Shown: in pieces, positions 981-21,110 of the stretch | Layout: every line of letters starts with the position of its first letter | Position numbering within the stretch: position 1 is the stretch's first letter | DNA from: Formosa sp. Hel1_33_131 | GTDB lineage: Bacteria; Bacteroidota; Bacteroidia; Flavobacteriales; Flavobacteriaceae | DNA: 32,000 bases | Reading direction: 5' to 3' | NCBI RefSeq assembly: GCF_001735745.1 | Contig: NZ_CP017260.1 | Coordinates: 1,980,001 to 2,012,000 of the forward strand | The notes under the pieces: model-generated | What the model was told of the DNA's origin: nothing | What the model saw: the letters and a program-made list of their open reading frames with translations, nothing else | The model's database searches: none | Program-made: the position numbers and the translations under genes

Positions 981-1015
981 CTAAATTAGGAGCATTGCAA
1001 TTTTTAAAATAGGAC
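981..1015 (-). promoter_or_regulatory. Late-promoter-like cassette GTCCTATTTTA-N16-TAATTTAG
   Basis: The minus strand reads GTCCTATTTTA (1015-1005), 16 nt, then TAATTTAG (988-981). The start codon is at 976. Confidence 0.55.
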
Positions 1016-1288
1016 ATAAAAATTTTGTGAGAATTTGAATGAGAACTTCATTATTTTAAATCAAAACATCTGTTTTTTTCTGAATTACATTAATAAATTG
1101 TTTATTCCGTGCCAGTTTTACTGTTAAAATCTCATATTTTTTTTATTAAATTATTGATTTTCAAATTTTTATGTACTTTTTTTACCCTCTCAAATCTCTT
1201 TTTTGACAGTTCCCAACGCCGCATCCTTAGATAAATGACAATTGCCTGTATCGAAAACTAGGGATATATGAATTTTAGGTTACGAAAA

Positions 1289-2806
1289 TCAAATAAATAG
1301 AGGAAGCGTCCAGTGTTCCTTGTCTTCCTTCAATAAATCTTTGTAGATGTCCCAGATAGGGATGTCGAATGCATCCGGTAGGTGAGTGGTGTGCTGTTGC
1401 TTCATGCTCTGGTTACGTTCGTCCTTCTTGACCTTCTGAATGCCATTCTTATCCTCAGCAGCTTCAGCGCGCTCGAGTCCAATGATAAGATCCGGGTTGT
1501 TTTGTTCGTTGATTGCGATGGATGGATAACGTGAACTGGTAGCCTTCAGCATCATGTTCATGAGTATATATTTCCCATTGTGAGGGGCCACAGGCTTACC
1601 TTTACTCTTATCATACACCGTCCACCCCTTCGATTCCAGTAGCCGCACGAGGACATCGCCATAGGTGTCGTTCGTACCCTTCTTGACTCGGGCGTTACCA
1701 TCGTGACCATAATAGAGGTGAAGGACCTTGTTAGGCAGCGGCGCATAGTATTCCACAAAGTTATTAACGAGATCCTCGAGGTCTCGTGTCTCACTAGACT
1801 GAGACGCCCACATGGATTTAAGTACTTTGTATTGATTAGGCAAAGATTGACTAATCACAGCAGAGATAAATACCCCCCAATCGATCGAAAGGATAAGAGG
1901 ACGCCCCTTATCAATGTCATTGTCCTGTTTACAATTGAAAGACTTCTCTGTATAATTAGCGGTAATTCCCTCCAGATAATCGTTATTATAATCGGTATAA
2001 TAATGACTCTTTTTAAGTTGAGGATAAAATCCATTAAGAATCTCCTTAGGCCGTATATTTAATATTTCAGCATTGTAATATAAATCCGATGGTGATTCGT
2101 CCTTCATCTCTTCAAACCATTCTTCCCGTAAATTAAACTTATTGATTAAAGCACTCGCTTTGATAAAGGCATATTTCTCAGGCTTCTTTTTAGCCACTTT
2201 CTCAATATCCGTAAACCAGCGCCCTTTCTTAGTTAAAGGAGTAGAAGAGGCATAAATCTCAGCACCGAGCAAAGAACAATTTTCAAAACGGGCTTCTTTA
2301 GCTCTGTTGGTAGTTTTTACATTCGTAAATAGTTTCTCTGGATCAAACAAAGAAGCTTCATCTCCTAAAATACCAAATGAATTCAAACCACGTCCACTAT
2401 TCGGACTATCGAGCGATACCAATTGAAAAACAGAACCATTCGAAAAATGTATAATGTTATCCCATTTGTCAGGCGCATAGATAGGCTCAGCAAATCCAAG
2501 TTTAGCACCTTTTTTCCCAACAACATAATCATAACCTTCATAAATCCCCAGAGCTGCCAAACCGTTTTTTGTTGATGGAAGTGTCCGGGACAAAATCTGT
2601 TGATACGTAGAACCAACCAAAGCAAACGAAGCACCAGGCATTTGCTTTACCATTTCCTTCATGAAAAATGCCAGAATAAACGATTTACCCGTGCCTCGAC
2701 CCCATTCAAGATATATCTTCGTTTTTCCCAAAACAGTAACCGCCAAGACAGCCGCCAACTGCGCCGCATTCAAAACAATATCTAAGTACTTGCTTACTTT
2801 ACTCAT
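1289..2806 (-). CDS. terL: Terminase large subunit
   Basis: Walker A GRGTGKSF and Walker B-like ILGDEA, about 505 aa. I chose the start at ATG 2806 (MSKVSKYL), which overlaps the upstream stop by 8 nt (ATGAGTAA). Confidence 0.85.
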   Translation of the reverse strand: MSKVSKYLDIVLNAAQLAAVLAVTVLGKTKIYLEWGRGTGKSFILAFFMKEMVKQMPGASFALVGSTYQQILSRTLPSTKNGLAALGIYEGYDYVVGKKGAKLGFAEPIYAPDKWDNIIHFSNGSVFQLVSLDSPNSGRGLNSFGILGDEASLFDPEKLFTNVKTTNRAKEARFENCSLLGAEIYASSTPLTKKGRWFTDIEKVAKKKPEKYAFIKASALINKFNLREEWFEEMKDESPSDLYYNAEILNIRPKEILNGFYPQLKKSHYYTDYNNDYLEGITANYTEKSFNCKQDNDIDKGRPLILSIDWGVFISAVISQSLPNQYKVLKSMWASQSSETRDLEDLVNNFVEYYAPLPNKVLHLYYGHDGNARVKKGTNDTYGDVLVRLLESKGWTVYDKSKGKPVAPHNGKYILMNMMLKATSSRYPSIAINEQNNPDLIIGLERAEAAEDKNGIQKVKKDERNQSMKQQHTTHLPDAFDIPIWDIYKDLLKEDKEHWTLPLFI

Positions 2807-3368
2807 CCTCTTCCACTTCTTGAAATTCAGCATCTACCGTCATGTCGTTGAAGTCTAAAACACCCGTTGTCAAATGGCTTATAATCGCATCCGTCACCTC
2901 TTTAGGAATAGACATCTTAACAGGCTTATTGTCTAGTTTTTCAGGGTTGTAATTAATGGCATTTTCATTGTCAATATCTGAGTATTTACCCAACAAAGTC
3001 AAAGCCGTTCCTATGGCTTTCAGGTCCTTTGCCTTAATAGCCATCAATAAATACTTATGCGAATATTCATACAAGATTGACAAAGTGCCATCTCGATCCG
3101 CTTTCATCACATTACCAAACAACCGCTCTGCATCCCGAAGATCCCGATAGGCTTGCGCGCGACTGATTTCGTATTTTTCCATTAAAACGTTGGTCGATTG
3201 CTCTCTGGAGTGGAAATTTTGACGCAATGCAAATGCCGCCAACCAACGGTCTTTTATTTCTGTTTGGTTGGCGGTCAGTGGGTATTTTGTAGAATCCTTG
3301 TAATACGCAAAAAGCTTGTCAAAAGTAGAATCGCCTGTTTTTATTGTTGGTAGTTTTGATATTGCCAT
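2799..3368 (-). CDS. Putative terminase small subunit / DNA-binding packaging protein
   Basis: 189 aa directly upstream of and overlapping terL. It has an HTH-like segment (ISRAQAYRDLRDAERLF) and an acidic tail. The call rests on position only. Confidence 0.45.
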   Translation of the reverse strand: MAISKLPTIKTGDSTFDKLFAYYKDSTKYPLTANQTEIKDRWLAAFALRQNFHSREQSTNVLMEKYEISRAQAYRDLRDAERLFGNVMKADRDGTLSILYEYSHKYLLMAIKAKDLKAIGTALTLLGKYSDIDNENAINYNPEKLDNKPVKMSIPKEVTDAIISHLTTGVLDFNDMTVDAEFQEVEEDE

Positions 3369-3372
3369 AATA

Positions 3373-3407
3373 CAAAACTGGCAATTGTCAACTTTTTAGA
3401 ATAGGAC
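3373..3407 (-). promoter_or_regulatory. Late-promoter-like cassette GTCCTATTCTA-N16-CAGTTTTG with palindrome-like spacer
   Basis: Minus strand has GTCCTATTCTA (3407-3397) and the box CAGTTTTG (3380-3373). The spacer contains TGGCAATTGTCAA. ATG is at 3368. Confidence 0.55.
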
Positions 3408-3435
3408 AAAAAAAAACTACCTTTAGAAGTAGTTT
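3408..3435 (-). terminator. Intrinsic terminator after the ParB-like gene
   Basis: Stem AAACTAC/GTAGTTT (3414-3420 / 3429-3435) is followed on the minus strand by a U9 run (3416-3408). It overlaps the stop codon at 3434-3436. Confidence 0.65.
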
Positions 3436-3823
3436 AATTTTCAATCATAACTAAAAAATTTAGTATAATATCTCCAAAAACTTCATCTAAAATATCAGTA
3501 TCCCAAAAACCAACCGAAACGTTCGAAACAATATTATATTCCTTAAACTCCTGTTCCGAAAGTGTGCGGTTTGGAAGTCGCACATCAATAAGCTCCTCGC
3601 CCCGTCCTAAGTCCATCAGCACCTTAACACGTTGGTGACCGGCTATGATAGTCAGATCCGTATTAACTACCGGGATTTCAGCCAAATTGTAACGTTTCAA
3701 ACTTTTTTTAAGTTTTTCCAGACGTTCTGGAGTAATTTTTCGAGGATTGTAATTGTAAGGAACCAAGTCCTTAACCTTTCGTTGTTCCGTGTGCCATTCT
3801 AAAGGCGCTAATGTTTCACTCAT
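3434..3823 (-). CDS. ParB-like nuclease domain protein
   Basis: N-terminal ParB/sulfiredoxin-type motifs (NPRKITPERLEKLKKSL, IIAGHQRVKVL). ATGA overlap with the upstream gene. Confidence 0.75.
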   Translation of the reverse strand: MSETLAPLEWHTEQRKVKDLVPYNYNPRKITPERLEKLKKSLKRYNLAEIPVVNTDLTIIAGHQRVKVLMDLGRGEELIDVRLPNRTLSEQEFKEYNIVSNVSVGFWDTDILDEVFGDIILNFLVMIEN

Positions 3824-4536
3824 TTCTCATTTATTAAATTAGTTAATTGTTGCGCTTCATACTCATGCTGGAGCAACGTGCGCTCCGCCTTTTCAAAAGC
3901 AATTTTTAATTTTGTAGAATCCGATTTGGACAATTTTTGTCCAAACTGTTTTTTAAGGACTTCAACCTTCTTTTTATGCTTAGAAATTGTCGCTTTTTTA
4001 TTCCCTCGAGTTTGAATCAACTGAGCTGGCGTCAAATCCTCAAAACTCCGAGGCTTGATATTCAAAACAACCTTGTGTTTCTTGTAATAATCCAATACTT
4101 TTTGAGACGTTTCAATCGCATCAAACAGATCTTCAATCATAATACACAACTTCAAAGCCGCCCCTTCTTCGTCCGGATGGAGCGCAGTAAGCTGCAAATG
4201 CAAAGAACAGGCACGTTTATAATTAGTGCTTTGTTCAATCAACATCGGATGCAATCCTATTGGCATTTCATTAATCCTATAAAATCCTCCAGAACTATGT
4301 TTGGTCACCACAGGCGTTGGCGTCTGAATCTTGGTTATAGGCTCTTGATCTTTAACACTAGGATCTTCAGCCTCCCGAAACTTCCCAAGCTCATACGCCA
4401 ACTTCTCAGCATTGGCAAGGCTTTCTTTTCGCAAAAACAACCGAACCAAATTGGCACTATGCCCTTTTATGGACGCATACAATAAAACACCTTCGTTGTA
4501 TTGACATCCGCCATCAAACCAATTATTAATTTTCAT
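3820..4536 (-). CDS. Hypothetical phage protein, 238 aa
   Basis: ORF track. It has its own promoter cassette upstream and is translationally coupled to the ParB-like gene. Confidence 0.6.
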   Translation of the reverse strand: MKINNWFDGGCQYNEGVLLYASIKGHSANLVRLFLRKESLANAEKLAYELGKFREAEDPSVKDQEPITKIQTPTPVVTKHSSGGFYRINEMPIGLHPMLIEQSTNYKRACSLHLQLTALHPDEEGAALKLCIMIEDLFDAIETSQKVLDYYKKHKVVLNIKPRSFEDLTPAQLIQTRGNKKATISKHKKKVEVLKKQFGQKLSKSDSTKLKIAFEKAERTLLQHEYEAQQLTNLINEK

Positions 4537-4540
4537 AGCG

Positions 4541-4575
4541 TAAAATTGACAATTGTCAACTTTTTAGAATAGGAC
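4541..4575 (-). promoter_or_regulatory. Late-promoter-like cassette GTCCTATTCTA-N16-CAATTTTA containing the perfect palindrome TTGACAATTGTCAA
   Basis: Minus strand has GTCCTATTCTA (4575-4565) and the box at 4548-4541. The palindrome is at 4546-4559. ATG is at 4536. Confidence 0.55.
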
Positions 4576-4577
4576 AT

Positions 4578-4605
4578 AAAAAAAACCACTGTTTAGAGTG
4601 GTTTT
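4578..4605 (-). terminator. Intrinsic terminator after the secreted-protein gene
   Basis: Stem AAAACCACT/AGTGGTTTT followed by a U8 run on the minus strand. Confidence 0.65.
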
Positions 4606-4628
4606 AATTTTTATTTGAAAGTCAAATT

Positions 4629-5081
4629 CTATACCAGATAATTACCAGTCCAAAATTCATTTTTTAAGTTATTTGATACAGAATCTTTAAAACTACAATA
4701 CGGTTGAATCCTATATCTAATCGCATGGTTCTGTAAATCAATCGACTCATTTAATTTTTGATTATAAATTAAATTCAGATCACCAATAGGACTTCCGGGG
4801 TCCATAAACGAGTAACTATCCGGACTGGAATTTGAAGTTAAAAAGTAAGTTTCAAAAATAGGTGTCGATACATCTGGAGCTTCCGTAAACTGAAACACCG
4901 AACACTCTAAAAGAATTGTTGAATCCGTTACCGTACTTGTATCTGAAACAGTCAGAACAATAGGAACGTCTTGAAACACATCATTGTGGGAATCAACAAA
5001 AATAGGAACCGTGGCCACGCTAGCACTGGCAATTGATAAGAACCCGAAAAATACGAGTAATAGGCTAAATAAATTTTTCAT
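4629..5081 (-). CDS. Secreted protein, 150 aa, with N-terminal signal peptide
   Basis: I moved the start to MKNLFSLLLVFFGFLSIASA (ATG 5081). The upstream part of the tracked ORF covers the promoter cassette. The gene is bracketed by terminator-promoter cassettes. Confidence 0.6.
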   Translation of the reverse strand: MKNLFSLLLVFFGFLSIASASVATVPIFVDSHNDVFQDVPIVLTVSDTSTVTDSTILLECSVFQFTEAPDVSTPIFETYFLTSNSSPDSYSFMDPGSPIGDLNLIYNQKLNESIDLQNHAIRYRIQPYCSFKDSVSNNLKNEFWTGNYLV

Positions 5082-5117
5082 AGAAATGAATTTTAAGATT
5101 AATAATTTATTGAGTAC

Positions 5118-5152
5118 CAAAATTGACAATTTCCAAAATTTTAAAATAGGAC
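5118..5152 (-). promoter_or_regulatory. Late-promoter-like cassette GTCCTATTTTA-N16-CAATTTTG
   Basis: Minus strand has the motif at 5152-5142 and the box at 5125-5118. The spacer holds TTGACAATTTCCAA (12/14 match to the palindrome). Confidence 0.55.
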
Positions 5153-5181
5153 AAAAAAAAGCCACTCCCTAAAAGAGTGAC
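5153..5181 (-). terminator. Intrinsic terminator after the 188-aa structural gene
   Basis: Minus-strand RNA GUCACUC-UUUUAGG-GAGUGGC (one G-U pair) followed by U8. Confidence 0.6.
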
Positions 5182-5216
5182 TTTTCCCACCAAATCTAAC
5201 TAAAATTTGTTTTGTA

Positions 5217-5783
5217 TTACGGAGCTTGAACCGTAATAGCACCCTTATAAATAGGGGCATCATACAACTGCTTATCTTGAAAAACAAGCGTAGTTGTGTT
5301 TTCACCTTCCGTAGTGGCTTCAATCTTACTTGAAGACTCCAATAAACGCCCTGCATATTTTGCAGATCCAATCTGTCTCACTTGACCGTTTCCAAATTCT
5401 GGTGCCAAAACAATTAAGTCTCGACCTTTACACAAACGCTTAAATCCTAAGATCTCAGCTTTGGATCCTAAAATTTGAACCGTCAATTTATTTTCTTGTG
5501 CCGGAGACATTGTTGGACTTCCAATCTGAGCCGTTTCCAAACCAACCGTTTCCGAGATCGCTTTAATTTTGGTAAACCCAAAACCAGCGTTGAAAGTATG
5601 ATCGGCCGCAATTTCAACCAAACCTTCCAAAGTCGTTGCAGCACCAGTACCACAACGTGGACTCGGTTCTGTCAGCGATGCAAAATTCTCTAAAAATCCA
5701 ACGTAAACTTCCGTGTGCGAAAAACCTCCAGTAACTTCACAATCCCCTGCGCCGCCTATTGCTTCTACTTTTATTATTGCCAT
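5217..5783 (-). CDS. Putative virion structural protein, 188 aa
   Basis: ORF track. It sits in the head module two genes after the capsid gene. I recognised no motif. Confidence 0.5.
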   Translation of the reverse strand: MAIIKVEAIGGAGDCEVTGGFSHTEVYVGFLENFASLTEPSPRCGTGAATTLEGLVEIAADHTFNAGFGFTKIKAISETVGLETAQIGSPTMSPAQENKLTVQILGSKAEILGFKRLCKGRDLIVLAPEFGNGQVRQIGSAKYAGRLLESSSKIEATTEGENTTTLVFQDKQLYDAPIYKGAITVQAP

Positions 5784-5784
5784 G

Positions 5785-6246
5785 CTATATCTCTTTTAAA
5801 AGGTTAAATTTAGACTTAATCAAATCAGCCATAAGAGACTTATCCTTCACAGCTTCAGAAGCTTCGTACTTATCCCCCTTAAATCGGAACGCGTTCACGC
5901 CAAATTGATAGGTTTTATTGCCAGACTCATAAACAGCCCCTTCGCTATCGTCTGTTGTTTCAGCTTTTTCAGCCAACTCAGCACGAAGCAATTCAACAAC
6001 ACCTTCAGAAGCCTTCAAAGCTTCTTTACCTGTTTGAACTTTTGTCTTTTCAGCCGTTAAGTCAACAGTAAGCGTATTGTTTTTAGTATTGGAAACTTCC
6101 AGAGCTTCTTGTGTTTTGGCAAGCTGTCCATTAATAATAGGATGCTCTGCAACCTTAATCAAATTGCTTATTTCCGTATTTGTAGCACCTTCCGGAACTT
6201 GAATTTCAAGTTCCGCCGAACGTGCTAATAATTGTTCTTTATTCAT
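5785..6246 (-). CDS. Coiled-coil head-module protein, 153 aa
   Basis: ORF track. The sequence is Glu/Lys/Ala-rich and helical, and the gene lies directly after the capsid gene. Confidence 0.5.
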   Translation of the reverse strand: MNKEQLLARSAELEIQVPEGATNTEISNLIKVAEHPIINGQLAKTQEALEVSNTKNNTLTVDLTAEKTKVQTGKEALKASEGVVELLRAELAEKAETTDDSEGAVYESGNKTYQFGVNAFRFKGDKYEASEAVKDKSLMADLIKSKFNLLKEI

Positions 6247-6270
6247 AGTTTCTAAATTTTAAAGGTTATG

Positions 6271-7224
6271 CTATACCCAGCTACTTACGTAAACGAGTTC
6301 GTTATAGCCAAATCCAAGGCCTTCCCACCAATCCGTCATCAAAAAGACTTCTCTTTTGCTCTCTTCAACTTTTGGTTTGTTCATTCCATTAGTACGTCTT
6401 AGGTACAAGAAATTATCAACAGGCGTCGCCCATAAGTATTTTTCACCAGCCATAGACGGCAATCCAACCAATTCACAGGTAGTAAAATCAATCGTTGGTT
6501 TGTTTGGATCGTAATTAATATCCATTCCGTGCGTATTACGCTTATCTCGGTTATACCATTTCAAAATCTTCGGATCCATATAAACGCGCATTTTTGTGCC
6601 AGCCAATGCATTGTCAAAACTATCCGTAAACTCTTCGATCACATCAAAAGCATTTGCTTGAGTAATAGCAGCACTCAGAGCTACCGACTGCATTGGTTGA
6701 GTTGTATTTGCCAAACCATCAACCAATAATTTCTTAACCCCGTCCAAAGTAGCAACTGCAGCACCAGCAGTACCAACAGTCGCAGCGGCATACGTTCCTT
6801 TAAAATAAGCTTTCAACTCCAGGTCCTCAGCCATCTGTGGAATGACATCATTTTCTAACATGTAACGGACAATTGGCCAGTTCTTGCGCTCAGCTTCGTC
6901 AATAGAACCTAAGAATCCTAACCAAGACCCTTTTACATCGTCTGGAAATAATTCTAAATCAATTTTTAAATTGCGCAAACGAATTTCGTTTGGTAAAAAT
7001 TCCAACGTCCCTTTGGCCGTAAAATTCTTTTGAAACTGTTGAACAATTTCACCCAATCGAGTGTTGGCAAATCGATACACTTCACCATCATATACAATGG
7101 GTTTTGCATAACTGGTCGTTTTTGATTTCTGGCGCAATTGCGTCATTAATCGTTTTTCGTTTTGTCCTTCTGGAATATAGTAAGACCCAAACTGAGTCAC
7201 TATTGCTGTTTTTGTTATTCCCAT
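6271..7224 (-). CDS. Putative major capsid protein
   Basis: 317 aa, immediately downstream of the prohead protease-scaffold gene. The size and position are typical of a capsid gene, but the fold was not verified. Confidence 0.65.
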   Translation of the reverse strand: MGITKTAIVTQFGSYYIPEGQNEKRLMTQLRQKSKTTSYAKPIVYDGEVYRFANTRLGEIVQQFQKNFTAKGTLEFLPNEIRLRNLKIDLELFPDDVKGSWLGFLGSIDEAERKNWPIVRYMLENDVIPQMAEDLELKAYFKGTYAAATVGTAGAAVATLDGVKKLLVDGLANTTQPMQSVALSAAITQANAFDVIEEFTDSFDNALAGTKMRVYMDPKILKWYNRDKRNTHGMDINYDPNKPTIDFTTCELVGLPSMAGEKYLWATPVDNFLYLRRTNGMNKPKVEESKREVFLMTDWWEGLGFGYNELVYVSSWV

Positions 7225-7242
7225 TTTATTTTTTTTTTGAGA

Positions 7243-8565
7243 TTAATAATTCATATCTGCAGAGATGTCCATCCCTTCGATTACATTCGGATTGTCGTCG
7301 TCTGCATTTTCAGGACCATCTAAACTCGTTGATGGCTTAGCACCATCCGCAGCACCATATTCTGCAACCAATGCAGAGAGGGCTGCAACACCTTGTTCGT
7401 TGCTCATTGTAGCAGCACCTTCTACTTCAGCAGTTGCCAAAGCATTTTGGATCGCTGTTGTAACCGTTGTACTCGTAGCGGTTAAGCCTGTTATTTTTTC
7501 ATCTAAAGCAGTGGCTTCAGTCGCCGCCGTAGCTATTGCCGTGTCATTTTCAGACAATCGGTTTTCAAGCGCAGTGGCTTGTGCATCCGTCAAAATGATG
7601 CCCTGTTCGGTTTCTCCTTCAGCAAAAGAACTTCCGATGACTGCCTCTATTAAAGGCACTTTTAAATCGCTCATTGTATTTTTTTTAGAGTTATTTTTAT
7701 TTGAATTATTTGGAGTCGTTTTTGACAGTTCAAAAACTTTATCAATTGCAGTTTGTAAGGTTCCAATCTGGTCGATTAGACCGTTTGACAATGAATCTTC
7801 AGCATTATAAACGCCACCGGACAAAACGGATTCGTTTAAATTACTTCTAACTGAAGTCATATCGTTATGAAATGTGTCGACAATAGGATCTAAAACATTT
7901 TTTATATAACCTTTAGGGTCACCGTTCAATAAGTCCTCAAAGTCTTTATTTTTGTCAGTTGATTTTGTAGCATATTCTGTAATCACCTTAGCTCCTTTTT
8001 TTTCATAGAAGCCTTTCATATTAACAAAACTTGTCATCGCTCCAATACTGCCAATAGAATCAGCACGTTTATTGGCAACAACATGACTCGCAGCACTGCC
8101 TATATAATAAGCAGCACTACACATCAAACCATCGGTATAAGAAACAACAGGTTTTGAATAGTTTTTAATAAAATCGTGAAATTCAGGCGTTCCTGAAACT
8201 TGACCGCCACCGCTATCAATATCTAAAACAACACCCTTACAATTCGGATCCGACTCGTGTCGAGCCATTATTTGCTGTTTGGTCTTAGTCCCATTAGGAC
8301 CACATTCTTGATTGTATTTAAAAATTGGATTTTTTAAAGAAACGACTAAAACATAACCATCTTTATTGGTTTGGTTATTAAATGTTTGAGCAGAAACAGA
8401 AACAGATCCTTGCACTATAAATTCTTCAGAAATAAAATCTTCTTTATTTGAAGCTGGCATTTTTCCACTTAAAATGGAATATAGAGAAGGTAACAATGTA
8501 TGTCCGTAGGATTCATTTATAAACCAACGACCACCAACTAAAGAATGTAAATTATTTAAATTCAT
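7243..8565 (-). CDS. S49-family (SppA/ClpP-like) prohead protease fused to an Ala/Thr-rich scaffold-like C-terminus
   Basis: Motifs VVLDIDSGGGQVSG and MCSAAYYIGSAA are typical of S49 peptidases. The C-terminal ~150 aa are low-complexity, helical and acidic. Confidence 0.8.
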   Translation of the reverse strand: MNLNNLHSLVGGRWFINESYGHTLLPSLYSILSGKMPASNKEDFISEEFIVQGSVSVSAQTFNNQTNKDGYVLVVSLKNPIFKYNQECGPNGTKTKQQIMARHESDPNCKGVVLDIDSGGGQVSGTPEFHDFIKNYSKPVVSYTDGLMCSAAYYIGSAASHVVANKRADSIGSIGAMTSFVNMKGFYEKKGAKVITEYATKSTDKNKDFEDLLNGDPKGYIKNVLDPIVDTFHNDMTSVRSNLNESVLSGGVYNAEDSLSNGLIDQIGTLQTAIDKVFELSKTTPNNSNKNNSKKNTMSDLKVPLIEAVIGSSFAEGETEQGIILTDAQATALENRLSENDTAIATAATEATALDEKITGLTATSTTVTTAIQNALATAEVEGAATMSNEQGVAALSALVAEYGAADGAKPSTSLDGPENADDDNPNVIEGMDISADMNY

Positions 8566-8589
8566 TTATAACATGCTTTTTGCACGTTA

Positions 8590-8624
8590 CAAACATAGCT
8601 TCACCCTACTTTTTAAAATAGGAC
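8590..8624 (-). promoter_or_regulatory. Late-promoter-like cassette GTCCTATTTTA-N16-TATGTTTG (perfect -7 box)
   Basis: Minus strand has the motif at 8624-8614 and TATGTTTG at 8597-8590. ATG is at 8565. Confidence 0.6.
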
Positions 8625-8642
8625 ACAAAAATAAGAGGGACT

Positions 8643-9116
8643 TTAATCATTGATAAACACGGGTTTCTGTGGAATTTTTCCAGATACAAGCACTTTAATT
8701 GCAGAGCCATCCTCGTACTTAATTCCATTAACCAATTGATATTCCAAAGCCAACGGACACTTTTTAGAACCATATATTTTTTGTTGTCCAAAATGCTTAA
8801 TCCCAACCAAAATCACTTTTTTATGTATTCGTTTATTCAAATACGTATCCAATTCTTTCGTCTGAATTTGACACGTAAATTCTCCTTTAATATTATAGAC
8901 AACTCCAGCCTTTGTTTTTTTGGATGTTTCTCGGATTTTTATAGACTCTCGGACGGGCAAAATATCAATGTGATCCGTAGGAGGATTAATAACAATACTG
9001 GAGGCATTGGCATTGGTCAGCAAGTCAGGGCAACTCGTTACATGGTCAATTTCATATATATTAAAACTAAACCAACCGCCTGGCTGTTCGTTTAAAGAGG
9101 TATTTATATCTGCCAT
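8643..9116 (-). CDS. Hypothetical phage protein, 157 aa
   Basis: ORF track, in the late operon. Confidence 0.55.
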   Translation of the reverse strand: MADINTSLNEQPGGWFSFNIYEIDHVTSCPDLLTNANASSIVINPPTDHIDILPVRESIKIRETSKKTKAGVVYNIKGEFTCQIQTKELDTYLNKRIHKKVILVGIKHFGQQKIYGSKKCPLALEYQLVNGIKYEDGSAIKVLVSGKIPQKPVFIND

Positions 9117-9190
9117 TTCAATTTAATTTTAGGACAAAAAAAAGTTTACCGAAAAATGTCCGACCCGTTTTCCTTTGTACATATCTGTTT

Positions 9191-9685
9191 TTAAAGCTCT
9201 TTATTATCATTTTTGTCCATTTTACGATCCCTGTAAAATCCTTTATATAAAGTATCAGCACTAATTTCATCCTCGTGAATGTCGTAATGTCTCAAAAACT
9301 GAGAGATCGCACGCACCGTATTTTGTTTATTGATAGAATCGTGGTCGGAATTAAAAAACTTCAAACCACTACCAACAGAGACTTCGATATAACCATATAA
9401 ATCATTCAAAAACACCTTATGAATCATTTCTGCAAGGTCCTTTAATTTAAGACCATTAATATCAAACCCGACATCTTTCACTATGGAAGATGGAATCCCG
9501 AGCGAATAAAAATCCAATCCGGGAATGTGTTCCTTTGATTTTCTGTATTGTTTGTCCAACAAATTAACCAAATACCTACCAAGCCAAGATTTTCGACTCA
9601 CACAATGCTCAGTCCCATATTTTGCCGTCAAATATTTTTTTAAATACGATTTTACAGGAACGTGAAGCGTTACTAATTTACTCAT
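9191..9685 (-). CDS. Hypothetical phage protein, ~164 aa
   Basis: ORF track. The start is probably MSKLVTLHV (9685); 9691 is an alternative. Confidence 0.55.
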   Translation of the reverse strand: MSKLVTLHVPVKSYLKKYLTAKYGTEHCVSRKSWLGRYLVNLLDKQYRKSKEHIPGLDFYSLGIPSSIVKDVGFDINGLKLKDLAEMIHKVFLNDLYGYIEVSVGSGLKFFNSDHDSINKQNTVRAISQFLRHYDIHEDEISADTLYKGFYRDRKMDKNDNKEL

Positions 9686-9725
9686 AAACAATCTGATTTA
9701 TAAGCTATTAAGATACGAAATTCTA

Positions 9726-9971
9726 CTAAATTCCTGTACTTTTTATCTCATAACTTTTCCCAGAAATGAGTTTTTTAAATGTCCTTTTTGTTCCAGTAGT
9801 AGGATATTGCACTTCAAAATAAGAAACGCCTTGTTTTTTTAAAGTTTCAATAATTTTTAAAGAAGCAGCTAAAGTACCATCGGTTTTCACATCCACCAAA
9901 ACCAGAGTCGGTACCTTTTTCACCAATTTTGAGACTCTTTTTTTGACTGTTACTAATTTTTCAGTTGCCAT
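9726..9971 (-). CDS. Hypothetical phage protein, 81 aa, first gene after the late promoter at 9996-10030
   Basis: ORF track. Confidence 0.5.
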   Translation of the reverse strand: MATEKLVTVKKRVSKLVKKVPTLVLVDVKTDGTLAASLKIIETLKKQGVSYFEVQYPTTGTKRTFKKLISGKSYEIKSTGI

Positions 9972-9995
9972 TTTGTATATTTTTTTAAGTTCTTA

Positions 9996-10030
9996 CAAAC
10001 ATACTTCGCTCCAAAAAAATAAAATAGGAC
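9996..10030 (-). promoter_or_regulatory. Late-promoter-like cassette GTCCTATTTTA-N16-TATGTTTG (perfect -7 box)
   Basis: Minus strand has the motif at 10030-10020 and TATGTTTG at 10003-9996. ATG is at 9971. Confidence 0.6.
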
Positions 10031-10063
10031 AGTTTTTTGAGTAGGGCTCATTTTCAAAGCAAA

Positions 10064-10324
10064 CCGTTCATTTGTTCCAAGATTCTACTTAAAATACTGA
10101 TAATAAAACAGTTACACCTATGAACGCCTTTATTTTTATCTTGGAACATAATGAACGACACAATCCATGTTCCAAGAAATCTTGGAACAATAAAAACGCT
10201 GTTCATTTTGTTCCAAGATTTTTAATATAAAATTAATAGATTAAATACATACTTAACTACTTAATAATTAAATAGTTATAGTAAATAATAAATACAATCT
10301 TGGAACAAATGAACAAATGAACGG
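10064..10324. repeat. Iteron cluster: six copies of ATCTTGGAACA(nAATGAACG) in both orientations around an almost pure A/T core
   Basis: Forward copies are at 10138, 10179 and 10297. Reverse copies end at 10083, 10178 and 10219. The A/T stretch is 10220-10296. Confidence 0.8.
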
Positions 10325-10366
10325 TTAATCCCAATGGTTTTTAGTTTTACTAGTTTTTTTAAATAT

Positions 10367-10420
10367 GGGGGTGTGGGGGTTTGGGTTTTTGGATGGAATT
10401 GAATGGATGGGATGGAAGGG
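10367..10420 (+). repeat. G-rich tract (G5, G5, G3, ..., G3, G3)
   Basis: GGGGGTGTGGGGGTTTGGGTTTTTGGATGGAATTGAATGGATGGGATGGAAGGG, read directly from the sequence. Confidence 0.7.
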
Positions 10421-10477
10421 ATATAAATAGGACCACAGCACGCGCCACTGGTTTATGGGTTCATAGGATCTCTAACT

Positions 10478-10502
10478 AAAAAAACCGCCCGAGGGCGGTT
10501 TT
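10478..10502 (-). terminator. Intrinsic terminator ending the early operon (also usable on the plus strand)
   Basis: GC stem ACCGCC/GGCGGT with loop CGAG, followed by U7 on the minus strand. Confidence 0.75.
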
Positions 10503-10524: not shown

Positions 10525-10590
10525 TTAGCGATCGATAAAAGCTGTATTATCCCGACACATAGCTCCGTTAATACGGACTTTTGTTGACAT
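10525..10590 (-). CDS. Mini-ORF inside 71-bp element copy 1: MSTKVRINGAMCRDNTAFIDR (21 aa)
   Basis: Hand translation. It is conserved with the mini-ORFs in copies 2 and 3. Coding status is unproven. Confidence 0.3.
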   Translation of the reverse strand: MSTKVRINGAMCRDNTAFIDR

Positions 10591-10601
10591 ATACGGTAGT
10601 T
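10531..10601 (-). repeat. 71-bp conserved element, copy 1
   Basis: 65/71 identical to copy 3 by hand alignment. On the minus strand it begins at the stop codon of the upstream gene. Confidence 0.8.
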
Positions 10602-10839
10602 AAGCACAAGCTCTATTGAGTGCTTCGATTGTCCATTTTATTGCTGTATTAACATCCCCGTGTTTGCCATTATCTCCCATCCCTTGACAGTATGGTAATA
10701 ATTTATGGTCGTGTCTGTGATAATTTCCTCCTACTATTCCATTGTCAAACACTACTTTTTTCCATAACCATTTTCGAGTTAAGAGCCAGTGCTTAACACG
10801 TGGTATAGTTAATTGGGGTTTTTCTGCGTTATTCATCAT
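10600..10839 (-). CDS. Hypothetical phage protein, 79 aa
   Basis: ORF track. Confidence 0.5.
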   Translation of the reverse strand: MMNNAEKPQLTIPRVKHWLLTRKWLWKKVVFDNGIVGGNYHRHDHKLLPYCQGMGDNGKHGDVNTAIKWTIEALNRACA

Positions 10840-11523: not shown

Positions 11524-11844
11524 TTATTTGGTAGTGTCATATACGGTTTCTGTTTCACCATTCGGTTTTCTTTTCCTTATTTTTAAGGGGTCAAAGTGTT
11601 TCATGTTTGTAATCCCAACTGGGATGTCGTACCAATCATTTGGAAAACCTAAACAACAGTATTCTAATTTCTCGCCTTCTTCAACCAACGGTAACGGTTT
11701 TATAACATCGGATATAGGCAAATTATTTACTAATCTTTCGTACATTTTATCAAATACCTCATACTTTTTATCGCTGTTAGTTATCTCCATTCCTTTAATG
11801 AATAACCATTCTAAAGCACTTTTTTCTTGTTTTGTAAATTCCAT
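11524..11844 (-). CDS. Hypothetical phage protein, 106 aa (full-length parent of the duplicated 5' fragment)
   Basis: ATG start at MEFTKQEKSALEWLF. Its 5' 46 codons plus the leader lie in the 189-bp repeat. Confidence 0.55.
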   Translation of the reverse strand: MEFTKQEKSALEWLFIKGMEITNSDKKYEVFDKMYERLVNNLPISDVIKPLPLVEEGEKLEYCCLGFPNDWYDIPVGITNMKHFDPLKIRKRKPNGETETVYDTTK

Positions 11845-11897
11845 TTGTTTAGTCTTTTTAAATCCGTAAATAATCAACCCATATCTGCGCACCGTTA
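11709..11897. repeat. 189-bp perfect direct repeat, copy 1
   Basis: Base-for-base identical to 13883-14071 by direct reading. The ORF-track shadow ORFs are also identical. Confidence 0.9.
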
Positions 11898-12236: not shown

Positions 12237-12500
12237 CTAAAAAAACATTCTTTTCATTTCGGTGTTGTCACTTTCCGATGGAATGAGATAAGGTCTTAAG
12301 TCTAAAGCCCCACATATCTCTAAGTACACACCTAGCGGCATTGGTGTTTTGATTTTGAAATAACCTATCAAAGTAGGCTCGCTTACTTCTAGGATCACCA
12401 CGAGCTTTCTGATGGTTACTTTTTTTTCCTTCATTCTTTTTTTTAAGTAGGACATGATTAGCTGCTGCCCTACTTTTGATGCTTGCTTGTAGTTTTTCAT
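12237..12500 (-). CDS. Putative HTH DNA-binding protein, 87 aa
   Basis: The segment VTIRKLVVILEVSEPTLIGYF resembles an XRE-type helix-turn-helix. The gene abuts the upstream gene (12500/12501). Confidence 0.5.
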   Translation of the reverse strand: MKNYKQASKVGQQLIMSYLKKRMKEKKVTIRKLVVILEVSEPTLIGYFKIKTPMPLGVYLEICGALDLRPYLIPSESDNTEMKRMFF

Positions 12501-13055: not shown

Positions 13056-13163
13056 TTAAAATAGGTGTTTTGCTTTTTTGTTTATATTCCAAGCCTTGAA
13101 ACACTCGATAAAAGTTGTGTTATCCCGTGATATATACCCGTTAAGACACCTTTTAGTACGCAT
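13056..13163 (-). CDS. Mini-ORF inside 71-bp element copy 2: MRTKRCLNGYISRDNTTFIECFKAWNINKKAKHLF (35 aa)
   Basis: Hand translation. It is homologous to the mini-ORFs of copies 1 and 3. Confidence 0.3.
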   Translation of the reverse strand: MRTKRCLNGYISRDNTTFIECFKAWNINKKAKHLF

Positions 13164-13174
13164 ATACGGTAGTT
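13104..13174 (-). repeat. 71-bp conserved element, copy 2 (most diverged)
   Basis: It shares the TCGATAAAAGTTGTGTTATCCC and GCATATACGGTAGTT ends with copy 3. About three quarters of positions are identical by eye. Confidence 0.7.
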
Positions 13175-13184
13175 AGCCACAAAT

Positions 13185-13871: not shown

Positions 13872-14018
13872 TTATACTTGGCCGGATATAGGCAAATTAT
13901 TTACTAATCTTTCGTACATTTTATCAAATACCTCATACTTTTTATCGCTGTTAGTTATCTCCATTCCTTTAATGAATAACCATTCTAAAGCACTTTTTTC
14001 TTGTTTTGTAAATTCCAT
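13872..14018 (-). pseudogene. Truncated 5' duplicate of gene 11524..11844 (46 identical codons, then GQV-stop)
   Basis: It lies within copy 2 of the 189-bp repeat. The reading frame diverges exactly at the repeat boundary (13883). Confidence 0.7.
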
Positions 14019-14071
14019 TTGTTTAGTCTTTTTAAATCCGTAAATAATCAACCCATATCTGCGCACCGTTA
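13883..14071. repeat. 189-bp perfect direct repeat, copy 2
   Basis: Identical to 11709-11897, offset by 2174 bp. Confidence 0.9.
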
Positions 14072-14080
14072 ACTGCAAGG

Positions 14081-14581: not shown

Positions 14582-14652
14582 GTCGATAAAAGTTGTGTTA
14601 TCCCCACACATAGATCCGTTAATACGGACTTTTGTTGGCATATACGGTAGTT
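14582..14652 (-). repeat. 71-bp conserved element, copy 3
   Basis: Its mini-ORF MPTKVRINGSMCGDNTTFIDKAFNYFKS... is in frame with the downstream gene. Confidence 0.8.
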
Positions 14653-14679
14653 GTAAACAAGCCGCCAATCTATACGCAA

Positions 14680-15536: not shown

Positions 15537-15794
15537 TTAGATGTTTTTTTGTTCATCAATTTTCTTTTGAGCATCAAAATAATGCGCATATCCTTCGTGT
15601 ATTTTTTCAGTCCATTCCGTGCCTTTAGAGTGGTACATTTTTTTACCTTCAATGATTTTAGAAGCCCCTAACGAGAAATCTTTAAGCTCATTGAACTCAA
15701 CCACTAAAAAATAGAACACGCCGCAAGGCACTGGGTAAATGCGGATGCCTAAAGCGTTACAAAACGCCATACGTTGACTTTGTTGGAGATTCAT
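15537..15794 (-). CDS. Hypothetical phage protein, 85 aa
   Basis: ORF track. ATGA overlap with the primase stop. Confidence 0.55.
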   Translation of the reverse strand: MNLQQSQRMAFCNALGIRIYPVPCGVFYFLVVEFNELKDFSLGASKIIEGKKMYHSKGTEWTEKIHEGYAHYFDAQKKIDEQKNI

Positions 15795-20014: not shown

Positions 20015-20131
20015 TTAATTTGCAAACGATGCTCCGCAGTCATGACAACTAAAGCTGTTATATCCATCAGAACAATGATTTGCAACTTGCTCTAAATTAT
20101 TACTATTACACATTATACAATTGCCCATCAT
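20015..20131 (-). CDS. 38-aa CxxC...CxxC zinc-ribbon-like peptide (MMGNCIMCNSNNLEQVANHCSDGYNSFSCHDCGASFAN)
   Basis: Hand translation. ATGA overlap with the stop of the LuxR-type gene. Confidence 0.45.
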   Translation of the reverse strand: MMGNCIMCNSNNLEQVANHCSDGYNSFSCHDCGASFAN

Positions 20132-20718
20132 GCTATAATTTTATACTGAATTGATAAATAGAGTAATTCCGTTTTAGTCGTCACCCCAAGGGCCCTAAAC
20201 AGTCGAGACTTATGAAAGTCTAGTGTTTTGGTAGTCACCCCAAGCGCGGCCGCAATGGCTTTGTCTGGGAGGTTATCGGCTATAAAATCAACGATCACCA
20301 ATTGGCGAGGTGTGAAAACATGATTTTTGATGTTTATATTTTTTGAATCCCATAACAAGCTAGGACAGTTCCGGGAGTCTCTAAAGTTTTCGGATGGGGC
20401 TAGTTTCCCGTTTTTGATGTCTGGAGTTGCGTCGAGGCTTCCGTACATATAATAAGTGTACAATTCTACTTGTGTACGTAACTTATCAGACACTTCGGAC
20501 AAAAAAGCAATGGCCGTATGGTCTTTTAAATACGCGTTTTTTAGAAGTGTATAATAGTACAAAGGCAAATCACTGAAGTAGTGATTATTCCCATTTTGCA
20601 TCCAAAGGACTTGCTTTGTTTTTCGGACGCCAATAAATTCAAGGTTTGAATCATTAGGCATGAGCCCAGCAATTTGTGGGTAAGCTTTAAAATTTGTAAT
20701 TTTGACATTGTTAATCAT
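20128..20718 (-). CDS. LuxR/GerE-type HTH regulator with an uncharacterised N-terminal domain
   Basis: The C-terminus (TPRQLVIVDFIADNLPDKAIAAALGVTTKTLDFHKSRLFRALGV) matches the LuxR_C HTH pattern. Confidence 0.75.
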   Translation of the reverse strand: MINNVKITNFKAYPQIAGLMPNDSNLEFIGVRKTKQVLWMQNGNNHYFSDLPLYYYTLLKNAYLKDHTAIAFLSEVSDKLRTQVELYTYYMYGSLDATPDIKNGKLAPSENFRDSRNCPSLLWDSKNINIKNHVFTPRQLVIVDFIADNLPDKAIAAALGVTTKTLDFHKSRLFRALGVTTKTELLYLSIQYKIIA

Positions 20719-21054: not shown

Positions 21055-21082
21055 TTACTGACGTATTACTGACACAAATATA
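21055..21082 (-). promoter_or_regulatory. Leftward early promoter -7 box TATATTTG (21082-21075) with adjacent TTACTG direct repeats (operator-like)
   Basis: TTACTG occurs at 21055-21060 and 21066-21071 (11-bp period). The same layout is conserved at 24610-24637. Confidence 0.55.
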
Positions 21083-21110
21083 GCATATAAATATACTAGT
21101 ATCCAAATTT

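What the first reader, a model, noticed from the sequence alone, without database searches (positions are those of the whole stretch)
981..10030. Six copies of a fixed-geometry promoter-like cassette (GTCCTATTYTA - 16 nt - YAnnTTTR) in front of late genes
The same architecture recurs on the minus strand at six sites: 1015-981, 3407-3373, 4575-4541, 5152-5118, 8624-8590 and 10030-9996.
- An invariant GTCCTATT(T/C)TA is followed after exactly 16 nt by an 8-mer matching or nearly matching the Bacteroidota -7 consensus TAnnTTTG. Two copies are perfect (TATGTTTG); the others are TAATTTAG, CAGTTTTG, CAATTTTA and CAATTTTG.
- A start codon follows 4-36 nt later.
- The invariant 11-mer sits where the canonical -33 TTTG would be but does not match it.
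- Three copies directly follow a hairpin plus U-run terminator, giving terminator-promoter insulator units between single genes.
This looks like a phage-specific late promoter class. It could be read with a dedicated phage factor (the LuxR-type protein 20128..20718 is one candidate) rather than by the standard host promoter grammar.
Basis: partly seen in the sequence, partly recalled or inferred. Interest (0 to 1): 0.65.

Follow-up and report, generated by a model that had tools for sequence, protein, structure and literature searches.

The report
Flavobacterial phage late-gene promoter cassette
A prophage of a marine Flavobacteriaceae bacterium places the same 35-base signal in front of each block of its virus-particle genes; related phages across many genera carry the same signal, and it is most likely a switch-on site read by a phage regulator that earlier work took for a quorum-sensing protein.

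Summary
GTCCTATTYTA occurs six times in the window, against 0.05 expected. All six copies lie on the minus strand, in intergenic DNA, exactly 16 nt upstream of a box resembling the Bacteroidota -7 element. All six sit in front of late genes: terminase, head protease and capsid-region genes.

The cassette is not peculiar to this prophage. In 412 kb of terminase-anchored DNA from Polaribacter, Tenacibaculum, Algibacter and Arenibacter prophages and from viral contigs:
- 89 copies lie on the late-gene strand and none on the other strand.
- 76 of 77 unique copies keep the 16-nt spacing.
- In 33 of 77 the ATG starts exactly 4 nt after the box, where published Flavobacterium spacing puts the transcription start. 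That predicts leaderless mRNAs.

Distant cultured relatives (Leef_1, Ingeline_1, 6H) carry lineage variants with the same geometry. Early, lysogeny and host-flank DNA lacks the cassette.

The LuxR/GerE-type gene at 20128-20718 is the only non-structural gene shared by all four lineages. Its N-terminal domain matches no known family or fold.

Best reading: these are activator-dependent late promoters that keep the host -7 box and replace the -33 element with a phage-specific site, analogous to T4 MotA or Mu C promoters. Neither transcription starts nor protein binding have been shown. I rate it a new variant of a known kind, of moderate interest.

The parts
9996..10030 (-). Late cassette 6, the first in transcription order. 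It consists of GTCCTATTTTA (10030-10020), a 16-nt spacer and the box TATGTTTG (10003-9996). The predicted start is about 9991 and the ATG is at 9971. It drives ORFs 9726-9971, 9191-9691 and 8643-9116.
   Evidence: position numbering from PMC6847099
8590..8624 (-). Late cassette 5: GTCCTATTTTA, 16 nt, TATGTTTG. The ATG is at 8565. It drives the head maturation protease (7243-8565), the capsid-position gene 6271-7224, and ORFs 5785-6246 and 5217-5783.
   Evidence: phrog_53, E 3e-50; orthologous sites lie upstream of the protease gene in relatives
5118..5152 (-). Late cassette 4: GTCCTATTTTA, 16 nt, CAATTTTG. The ATG is at 5081. It drives a single signal-peptide protein, 4629-5081.
5153..5188 (-). 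Intrinsic terminator (hairpin plus U-run) abutting cassette 4.
   Evidence: folding energy -16.6 kcal/mol
4541..4575 (-). Late cassette 3: GTCCTATTCTA, 16 nt, CAATTTTA. The ATG at 4536 starts 4 nt after the box, the leaderless-type arrangement. It drives ORF 3820-4536 and the ParB-like gene 3434-3823.
   Evidence: phrog_620
4576..4605 (-). Intrinsic terminator abutting cassette 3.
   Evidence: -9.9 kcal/mol
3373..3407 (-). Late cassette 2: GTCCTATTCTA, 16 nt, CAGTTTTG. The ATG at 3368 starts 4 nt after the box (leaderless-type). It drives ORF 2799-3368, which sits in the small-terminase position, and the large terminase 1289-2833.
   Evidence: phrog_2
3408..3435 (-). Weaker hairpin plus U-run terminator abutting cassette 2.
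   Evidence: -7.5 kcal/mol; it fell below the G+C threshold of the scanner
981..1015 (-). Late cassette 1: GTCCTATTTTA, 16 nt, TAATTTAG. The ATG at 976 starts 4 nt after the box (leaderless-type). It drives ORF 635-976 and, beyond the window edge, the portal-region genes.
   Evidence: A metagenome contig of the same phage (L001) continues into genes of 449 and 317 aa and a seventh cassette at L001:3574.
20128..20718 (-). Candidate cognate activator, 196 aa. Residues 131-195 form a LuxR/GerE/NarL-type helix-turn-helix. Residues 1-130 form a domain with no known family or fold. It is the second gene of the early operon.
   Evidence: for the protein; for co-occurrence
21075..21107 (-). Contrast case: the canonical host-type early promoter, TTTG (21107-21104), 21 nt, TATATTTG (21082-21075). 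It lies in front of the cro-like gene 20745-21014 and the LuxR-type gene and has no GTCCT element.

Best explanation
The six cassettes are late promoters of a temperate Flavobacteriaceae phage related to Polaribacter phage Leef_1.

Anatomy. Each cassette keeps the -7 box of the host primary sigma factor (nAnnTTTG, at -12 to -5). The host -33 TTTG is replaced by a phage-specific element, (T)GTCCTATTYTA(AAA), at about -39 to -29.

Proposed mechanism (inferred).
- Host RNA polymerase cannot use these promoters well by itself. The -33 element is missing, and T-12 is absent from roughly two thirds of sites across the family.
- The prophage therefore keeps its late genes silent.
- After induction, the canonical early promoter expresses the LuxR/GerE-type protein at 20128-20718.
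- That protein binds the GTCCT element next to, or in place of, sigma region 4 and recruits polymerase to every late transcription unit.

Consequences of the layout.
- Terminator-promoter junctions make each unit separately dependent on the activator.
- At about half of the promoter positions, transcription should begin at the A of the ATG and give leaderless mRNAs.

What is shown: the sequence anatomy, its statistics, its conservation, its restriction to late genes, and its co-occurrence with the LuxR-type gene.

What is inferred: promoter activity, the start sites, activation rather than repression, and the identity of the factor.
For: Counts and geometry:
- Six copies against 0.05 expected, all on one strand and all intergenic.
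- In terminase-anchored loci, which were not selected by motif, there are 89 copies on the late strand and 0 on the other. 76 of 77 unique copies have nAnnTTnn at offset 27 and 55 of 77 have nAnnTTTR. 25 of 77 abut a hairpin plus T-run.
- The information profile shows the 11-mer and A-11, T-8, T-7, T-6 and G-5 conserved, while the 16-nt spacer is not.

Fit to host promoter grammar:
- Flavobacterium -7 boxes occupy -12 to -5, with the start 4-5 nt downstream (PMC6847099; PMC9723704).
- The ATG lies exactly 4 nt after the box in 33 of 77 sites, against 5.5% leaderless mRNAs in F. psychrophilum.

Late-gene restriction:
- 1 copy in 233 kb of early, lysogeny and host-flank DNA.
- The early promoter is canonical.

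Lineage variants with the same geometry:
- Leef_1: 6 copies of GTCCTTTTWW, 1.33 expected.
- Ingeline_1: 6 copies of GTCCTTTTAA, 0.27 expected.
- 6H: 4 copies of CATGTCTTAAA.
- Flavobacterium and Saonia metagenome-assembled genomes: 4 copies each of TGTCCTTTT.

The candidate factor:
- Only the large terminase, the head protease and the LuxR-type protein are shared with all three cultured phages.
- A LuxR homolog is present on 8 of 10 motif contigs of at least 20 kb.
- The order repressor, cro-like gene, LuxR-type gene, primase is conserved.
- Controls lacking the gene show no enrichment.
- No sigma-like domain was found in any prophage ORF.
- The C-terminal domain is a genuine NarL/GerE-type DNA-binding helix-turn-helix.
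- The complement of the motif, AAATAGGAC, matches 7 of 8 core positions of the GerE consensus RWWTRGGY listed in PMC2695774. This is a weak lead.
Against: - No transcription start, expression or binding data exist for any of these phages.
- Co-occurrence of the LuxR-type gene and the motif is confounded by shared ancestry of the phages.
- The recognition-helix sequence does not track the motif variant. L132 and Leef_1 share the helix HSHYDALK but have GTCCTAT and GTCCTTT respectively.
- LuxR/NarL-type domains usually bind inverted repeats as dimers, from general knowledge. This site is asymmetric with no visible partner half-site.
- At the protease cassette, a covarying hairpin begins 4 nt upstream of the predicted start. 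RNA that includes the region between box and start must therefore exist, by read-through or from a different start.
- The 6H variant sits one base closer to the box at 3 of 4 sites, and its statistical support is modest.
Confidence: 0.6

Rival explanations
1. The cassettes are late promoters activated by a phage factor, but that factor is not the LuxR-type protein. It could be one of the many small early proteins of unknown function, or a protein encoded outside the window.
For: The helix-versus-motif comparison is inconsistent. The site is asymmetric, which is atypical for LuxR-type dimers. The window lacks part of the prophage.
Against: No other early protein is shared by the four lineages that keep the architecture. 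No other DNA-binding or sigma-like domain appears in the early operon, apart from a weak Cro/C1-type hit below threshold in 12237-12500.
Confidence: 0.15
2. The 11-mer is an operator for negative control, comparable to the stoperators of Cluster A mycobacteriophages. A phage repressor sits on the -33 region of otherwise self-sufficient -7-box promoters and keeps late genes off in the lysogen.
For: The sites are asymmetric, in one orientation, multi-copy and intergenic, and they overlap the promoter. In F. johnsoniae the -33 element is only weakly conserved, so a -7 box alone might suffice (PMC6847099).
Against: The divergent immunity promoter region (21014-21111) has no copy, although a repressor operator would be expected there. 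The CI-like repressors differ among the lineages while the GTCCT core persists. Most boxes lack the nearly invariant T-12, as expected for weak promoters that need an activator. The exact 16-nt phasing to the box is not needed for a roadblock.
Confidence: 0.1
3. The cassettes are read by host machinery alone. Either they are a variant class of primary-sigma promoter, or a host alternative sigma factor or transcription factor recognises GTCCTATT.
For: The -7-like box is host grammar.
Against: Late genes must stay silent in a lysogen; in Leef_1 the endolysin lies in such a unit. The cassette was absent from the little host DNA in hand and from early regions. None of the six promoter motif classes mapped in F. 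psychrophilum resembles it (PMC9723704). ECF-type promoters have a different -10 region.
Confidence: 0.1
4. The cassette acts at the RNA level. It would be a processing or translation signal placed before start codons within a long late transcript, comparable to the start-associated sequences of Cluster K mycobacteriophages.
For: The ATG lies 4 nt after the box at many sites. A covarying hairpin overlaps the region from box to ATG at the protease gene.
Against: The distance to the ATG varies from 4 to about 140 nt, while the distance from 11-mer to box is invariant. One third of sites directly follow terminators, so a new start is needed there. The conserved positions are precisely those of the DNA -7 element. 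There is no Rfam match.
Confidence: 0.05

Closest known systems
T4 middle promoters (MotA box plus AsiA, 'sigma appropriation')
   Same: The host -10-type element is retained. The -35-region element is replaced by a phage-specific asymmetric box at a fixed distance. This comparison rests on general knowledge.
   Different: The phylum and promoter grammar differ: a Bacteroidota -7/-33 promoter read by a primary sigma factor that lacks region 1.1. The candidate reader is a LuxR/GerE-type helix-turn-helix protein, not MotA. No AsiA-like co-factor was identified. The class is late rather than middle, and many promoters are of the leaderless type.
Phage Mu late promoters (C protein) and middle promoter (Mor)
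   Same: These promoters have a -10 element but no -35 element, and an activator site overlaps the -35 region. A small phage helix-turn-helix activator made earlier in the cycle reads them. This rests on general knowledge.
   Different: Mu C and Mor bind dyad-symmetric sites as dimers. Mu has only four late promoters. The protein family is unrelated.
Bacillus subtilis GerE at sigma-K-dependent late sporulation promoters
   Same: The DNA-binding fold is the same (Foldseek and HMM hits to GerE structures 1fse and 6jqs). GerE sites can lie next to or over the -35 region. The GerE consensus RWWTRGGYN2YY (PMC2695774) resembles the complement of the motif, AAATAGGAC.
   Different: GerE consists of the helix-turn-helix domain alone and is cellular. 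The phage protein carries an additional 130-residue orphan domain. The sequence resemblance is 7 of 8 positions and is untested.
RinA / ArpU / LtrC late transcriptional regulators of Gram-positive temperate phages; P2 Ogr and P4 Delta
   Same: A phage-encoded activator is required for the packaging, morphogenesis and lysis genes of temperate phages. This rests on general knowledge.
   Different: Those systems act at one or a few promoters, typically upstream of the small terminase gene. They use unrelated proteins, and their sites are not fused to a Bacteroidota -7 box.
Phage-encoded quorum-sensing LuxR-type receptors (VP882 VqmA-Phi, ARM81ld LuxR)
   Same: A phage gene annotated LuxR with a C-terminal helix-turn-helix domain. 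This is the reading given to the flavophage genes in PMC8776804.
   Different: The protein has no autoinducer-binding, PAS or receiver domain. The gene sits in the early lytic operon rather than at a lysis-lysogeny decision module. The evidence here points to late-gene activation, and any ligand sensing by the orphan N-terminal domain remains open.
Canonical Bacteroidota primary-sigma promoter (TTTG at -33, TAnnTTTG at -7)
   Same: The -7 box positions A-11, T-8, T-7, T-6 and G-5 are conserved at the right distance from the start codons.
   Different: There is no -33 TTTG. T-12 is present in only about one third of sites. An invariant GTCCT-containing element occupies -39 to -29.

Membership tests
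Canonical Bacteroidota sigma-A promoter | -7 box TAnnTTTG at -12 to -5 | tested here: inconclusive
   Two of the six window boxes are perfect. All six keep A-11 and T-8/T-7. Family-wide, A-11 is present in 76/78, T-8 in 77/78, T-7 in 78/78 and G-5 in 62/78, but T-12 in only 27/78.
Canonical Bacteroidota sigma-A promoter | -33 element TTTG about 19-21 nt upstream of the -7 box | tested here: not met
   The position is occupied by the invariant GTCCTATTYTA, with no G in the TTTG position. The window's own early promoter does have TTTG-N21-TATATTTG.
Canonical Bacteroidota sigma-A promoter | Transcription start 4-5 nt downstream of the box | not testable with these tools
   Only indirect evidence: the ATG lies exactly 4 nt after the box in 33 of 77 sites.
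Activator-dependent phage promoter class (T4 MotA / Mu C type) | The host -10-type element is kept and the -35 region is replaced by a phage-specific box at a fixed distance | tested here: met
   The 16-nt spacing holds in 76 of 77 unique copies, and the spacer sequence is not conserved.
Activator-dependent phage promoter class (T4 MotA / Mu C type) | Confined to one temporal gene class | tested here: met
   Copies occur only upstream of structural, packaging and late accessory genes: 89 against 0 by strand, and 1 copy in 233 kb of non-late DNA. Gene timing itself is inferred from gene function.
Activator-dependent phage promoter class (T4 MotA / Mu C type) | A phage-encoded protein binds the box and is required for activity | not testable with these tools
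   The candidate is supported by co-occurrence and synteny only.
LuxR/GerE/NarL helix-turn-helix family (PF00196), for protein 20128-20718 | C-terminal four-helix helix-turn-helix domain | tested here: met
   Pfam GerE scores 33.4 bits against a cut-off of 23.5. A profile search hits NarL 1je8 at E 1e-7. Foldseek matches NarL, VraR and GerE at 1.0-1.6 A rmsd over about 60 residues.
Quorum-sensing LuxR receptors / two-component response regulators | N-terminal autoinducer-binding domain or phospho-receiver domain | tested here: not met
   Residues 1-130 have no Pfam or NCBIfam hit. A confident model (pLDDT 91.6) has no structural match in PDB or BFVD beyond the helix-turn-helix domain. The N-terminal domain family has only 74 clusters among 1.84 billion representatives.
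Sigma factor (phage or ECF) promoter | A sigma-like protein is encoded and the -10 region differs from the host primary type | tested here: not met
   No sigma domains were found in any prophage ORF of the window. The LuxR-type model shows no sigma-like fold. The downstream box is of the primary-sigma type.
Mycobacteriophage-type stoperators | The same site also serves as the operator at the immunity or early promoter | tested here: not met
   There is no GTCCT cassette in 21014-21111 or at the second immunity-like module.
Start-associated sequences (translation-linked repeats) | Constant short distance to the start codon | tested here: not met
   The distance from box to ATG ranges from 4 to about 140 nt.
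Known RNA families | Match to an Rfam covariance model | tested here: not met
   No family reaches its gathering score anywhere in the window.

The most novel reading that the evidence does not exclude
The flavophage 'LuxR' protein could be the first known activator that replaces -33 recognition for the unusual Bacteroidota primary sigma factor, a functional counterpart of T4 MotA. Its orphan N-terminal domain could be a sensor. In that case the late transcription and lysis timing of a whole group of marine Flavobacteriaceae phages (Helgolandviridae, Duneviridae and many prophages) would be gated by a host or environmental signal. The cassette together with the protein would also form a compact, orthogonal and largely leaderless expression switch for Bacteroidota.
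Probability: 0.2. Interest if true: 0.75.

Novelty: new variant of a known kind. Interest (0 to 1): 0.55.

Why it matters
Transcription control in phages of Bacteroidota is almost unexplored, and the phylum uses its own promoter grammar.

If the reading is right, it provides four things:
- It defines the first phage-specific promoter class for Flavobacteriaceae phages, with a precise and easily scanned signature. That signature marks the late transcription units in prophages and viral contigs of important marine and fish-pathogen genera such as Polaribacter, Tenacibaculum, Cellulophaga and Flavobacterium psychrophilum.
- It offers an alternative function for the 'LuxR' genes that were read as quorum-sensing regulators in Helgolandviridae and Duneviridae (PMC8776804).
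- It predicts an unusual concentration of leaderless mRNAs in a phylum where they are rare. That makes translation initiation without Shine-Dalgarno sequences directly testable.
- It suggests a simple inducible promoter and activator pair for genetic tools in flavobacteria.

Tried and rejected
- Sigma-like factor. I asked whether the LuxR-type protein is a disguised sigma factor. A confident model matches only NarL/GerE helix-turn-helix domains. The idea is rejected.
- Single-sequence structure prediction. It gave pLDDT 32 and was unusable.
- Covariation between recognition helix and motif variant (GTCCTA against GTCCTT). The pattern is inconsistent and extra metagenome loci did not resolve it. 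This remains inconclusive.
- Literature. Searches for the motif string and for flavophage late promoters found nothing relevant. The Leef/Ingeline paper does not analyse promoters.
- Rfam and tRNA scans found nothing.
- Weak 11-mer match at 10423-10433. It has no box at the required spacing and is not a cassette.
- 80-nt early-region repeat. It contains GTCCGTATTAA, which looks similar, but has no box at the required spacing. I treat the resemblance as coincidence.
- Viral-contig pattern scan.
- Locus search with the protease gene returned only two loci.
- Homolog searches. Three timed out before one succeeded.
- Mosaic test. I could not fetch the late regions of some contigs that carry the LuxR-type gene, such as L127 (the terminase search did not return its contig, so it may carry a different terminase). 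I therefore could not test whether the gene travels with the motif on an unrelated structural module.

Full report
**What the window is**

The window has 36% G+C and carries a prophage from at least position 1 to about 25.1 kb.
- Host genes follow the prophage: a UDP-glucose 4-epimerase-like gene at 25136-26182 and cbb3-type cytochrome oxidase genes from 26207 onward.
- On the minus strand, a canonical early promoter lies at 21075-21107. It is followed by a cro-like gene (20745-21014), a LuxR/GerE-type gene (20128-20718), small ORFs, a primase (15791-19246; phrog_6444) and more small ORFs. A strong terminator lies at 10502-10481.
- The late genes come next: three small ORFs, the head maturation protease (7243-8565; phrog_53, E 3e-50), a capsid-position gene, a ParB-like gene, an ORF in the small-terminase position and the large terminase (1289-2833; phrog_2).
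- The nearest cultured relative is Polaribacter phage Leef_1 (Helgolandviridae), with 48% identity in the large terminase and 50% in the LuxR-type protein.

**Checking the observation**

- GTCCTATTYTA occurs exactly six times, all on the minus strand, at the stated coordinates. Shuffles give 0.05 expected.
The ATG follows 4, 4, 4, 36, 24 and 24 nt later.
- Three copies abut a hairpin plus U-run.
- A relaxed scan finds no extra copies in the prophage and none in the host part.

**Is it more than a local repeat?**

A pattern scan of viral contigs returned many loci with two to five same-strand copies. To avoid circular selection, I then collected loci by their large terminase rather than by the motif.
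- Ten came from reference genomes: Polaribacter, Algibacter, three Tenacibaculum, two Arenibacter, an unclassified Flavobacteriaceae MAG, and Flavobacterium and Saonia MAGs. Twelve came from viral contigs.
- In these loci plus the window (412 kb), the exact 11-mer occurs 89 times on the late-gene strand and never on the other strand.
- 76 of 77 unique copies have nAnnTTnn at offset 27, 55 of 77 have nAnnTTTR, and 25 of 77 directly follow a hairpin plus T-run.
- The information profile of 78 unique instances shows a conserved T at -1, the 11-mer, AAA, a 16-nt spacer with almost no information, and then A, TTT and G of the box.
- In 233 kb of early, lysogeny and host-flank DNA from elements of the same clade there is one copy. 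That copy is itself a late-type site on a permuted contig.

**Promoter geometry**

- In Flavobacterium johnsoniae the -7 element occupies T-12, A-11, T-8, T-7, T-6 and G-5, and transcription starts 4-5 nt after it (PMC6847099). F. psychrophilum shows the same -12 to -5 placement (PMC9723704).
- Applied here, the box lies at -12 to -5 and the 11-mer at -39 to -29, over the place of the host -33 TTTG, which is absent.
- Across the 78 unique family instances, T-12 is present in only about one third, as expected for promoters that are weak on their own.
- The ATG begins exactly 4 nt after the box in 33 of 77 sites, including three of the six in the window. The A of the ATG would then be +1, giving leaderless mRNAs.
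- Leaderless mRNAs are only 5.5% of F. psychrophilum mRNAs, and leaders of 10 nt or less are 13% in F. johnsoniae.
- The N-terminal peptides encoded from these ATGs are conserved between phages, so the start codons are credible.
- The early promoter of the same prophage is a standard TTTG-N21-TATATTTG.

**Distant relatives**

Complete genomes of cultured phages that carry a homolog of the LuxR-type gene were fetched.
- Leef_1 has six copies of GTCCTTTT(T/A)(T/A), all on the late strand (1.33 expected). They have the same 16-nt spacing, often follow terminators, and often have the ATG 4 nt after the box.
- Cellulophaga phage Ingeline_1 (Duneviridae; LuxR-type protein 35% identical) has six copies of GTCCTTTTAA (0.27 expected). 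Most are followed by TAnnATTG-type boxes.
- F. psychrophilum phage 6H (26% identical) has four copies of CATGTCTTAAA before late genes, including the protease gene. The box is at offset 26 at three sites and at 27 at one. This last case is tentative.
- Flavobacterium and Saonia MAG prophages, with 47-48% identity in the large terminase, carry four copies each of TGTCCTTTT.
- The invariant core is therefore GTC(C)T at about -39, with a lineage-specific A/T-rich 3' part.
- Two flavophages without the gene, Freya_3 and the first 50 kb of Molly_5, show one chance-level hit each.

**The candidate factor**

- Of 37 prophage ORFs in the window, only the large terminase, the head protease and the LuxR-type protein have homologs in all three cultured phages. 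All other early genes have turned over.
- The gene sits in a conserved position, in the order divergent repressor, cro-like gene, LuxR-type gene, primase.
- A homolog is present on 8 of 10 motif-bearing viral contigs of at least 20 kb. The other two are partial.
- Residues 131-195 form a true NarL/GerE-type helix-turn-helix (Pfam GerE 33.4 bits; NarL 1je8 at E 1e-7; Foldseek rmsd 1.0-1.6 A).
- Residues 1-130 have no family or structural match, although the model is confident (pLDDT 91.6).
- This N-terminal domain occurs in only 74 clusters among 1.84 billion representatives, nearly all of about 190-205 aa.
- The protein has no autoinducer-binding or receiver domain. The quorum-sensing reading in PMC8776804 therefore rests on the helix-turn-helix annotation alone.
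- No sigma-like domain occurs in any prophage ORF.

**Mechanism proposed**

The early promoter makes the LuxR-type protein. The protein binds the GTCCT element at the -33 region of each late promoter and recruits host RNA polymerase, whose sigma factor reads the -7 box. Terminators between units make each unit depend on the activator.

This works like T4 MotA-dependent middle promoters or Mu C-dependent late promoters. I do not file it as a member of either family, because the proteins are unrelated and binding is untested.

**Weak points**

- There is no experimental evidence of any kind.
- The association with the LuxR-type gene is phylogenetically confounded.
- Recognition-helix variation does not track the motif variants.
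- The site is asymmetric, whereas LuxR-type proteins usually bind dyads.
- A covarying hairpin at the protease cassette starts upstream of the predicted start.

**Rivals**

The rivals are another phage factor, a repressor operator, host-only recognition, and an RNA-level signal. Each is weighed in its own section. The main arguments against them are:
- the absence of the motif at the immunity promoters;
- the need for silence in lysogens;
- the invariant distance from 11-mer to box, contrasted with the variable distance from box to ATG.

**Verdict**

This is a real, strongly non-random and widely conserved cis-element. It is best explained as an activator-dependent late promoter class of Flavobacteriaceae phages. 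It is a new variant of a known regulatory logic, with a specific, testable candidate activator.

Noticed in passing
window 8569-8589 (minus strand), and orthologous sites in L135, L138, L075, L014 and others: An inverted repeat or hairpin, TAACGTGCAAAAAGCATGTTA, lies immediately after the -7 box of the head-protease cassette. It is conserved as a structure, with compensatory changes in 3 of 7 pairs across phages. It begins 4 nt upstream of the predicted transcription start, so it is complete only in read-through RNA or if the start lies elsewhere.
   Followed up: partly
window 10532-10611, 13105-13184, 14583-14662: Three copies of an 80-nt repeat, 74-89% identical, lie in intergenic parts of the early region. 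Each contains the small hairpin TCCGTTAATACGGA. Its function is unknown; it could be a middle promoter, a small RNA or a mini mobile element.
   Followed up: partly
window 11709-11897 and 13883-14071: A perfect 189-nt direct repeat, spaced 2174 nt apart. It duplicates the N-terminal part of ORFs 11524-11892 and 13872-14078. This looks like a recent internal duplication in the early region.
   Followed up: no
window 10031-10480; L174 (Leef_1) 29050-29520: A non-coding stretch of about 450 nt lies between the early-operon terminator and the first late cassette. It is C-rich and shares CCCCACACCCCCA with Leef_1. The equivalent gap in Leef_1 is packed with GATTACA/TGTAATC iterons. This is a candidate replication origin or packaging site.
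   Followed up: partly
window 20745-21485 and 24294-25033: There are two paralogous divergent immunity-like modules, each a cro-like gene paired with a repressor-like gene. The first repressor resembles that of Leef_1 (49% over 65 aa). The second resembles Ingeline_1 gp16 (33%). Between them lie a lipoprotein-like ORF (21515-21970) and an AAA_14/DUF4143 ATPase (22542-23909). No integrase is present in the window.
   Followed up: partly
window 4582-5188: A fully insulated single-gene unit, in the order terminator, late cassette, 150-aa signal-peptide protein (4629-5081), terminator. It is laid out like a moron but is driven by the late promoter class.
   Followed up: no
L001:3574 (metagenome contig of the same phage, beyond window position 1): A seventh cassette, GTCCTATTTTA-N16-TATGTTTG, lies downstream of genes of 449 aa (portal-sized) and 317 aa (DUF6712). 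The promoter series therefore continues outside the window.
   Followed up: partly
L080 (IMGVR_UViG_3300031088_000751): A viral contig with about 50% G+C carries two complete cassettes, one of them directly after a G+C-rich terminator. The element may therefore extend to phages of hosts with a much higher G+C content than the Flavobacteriaceae examined here.
   Followed up: no
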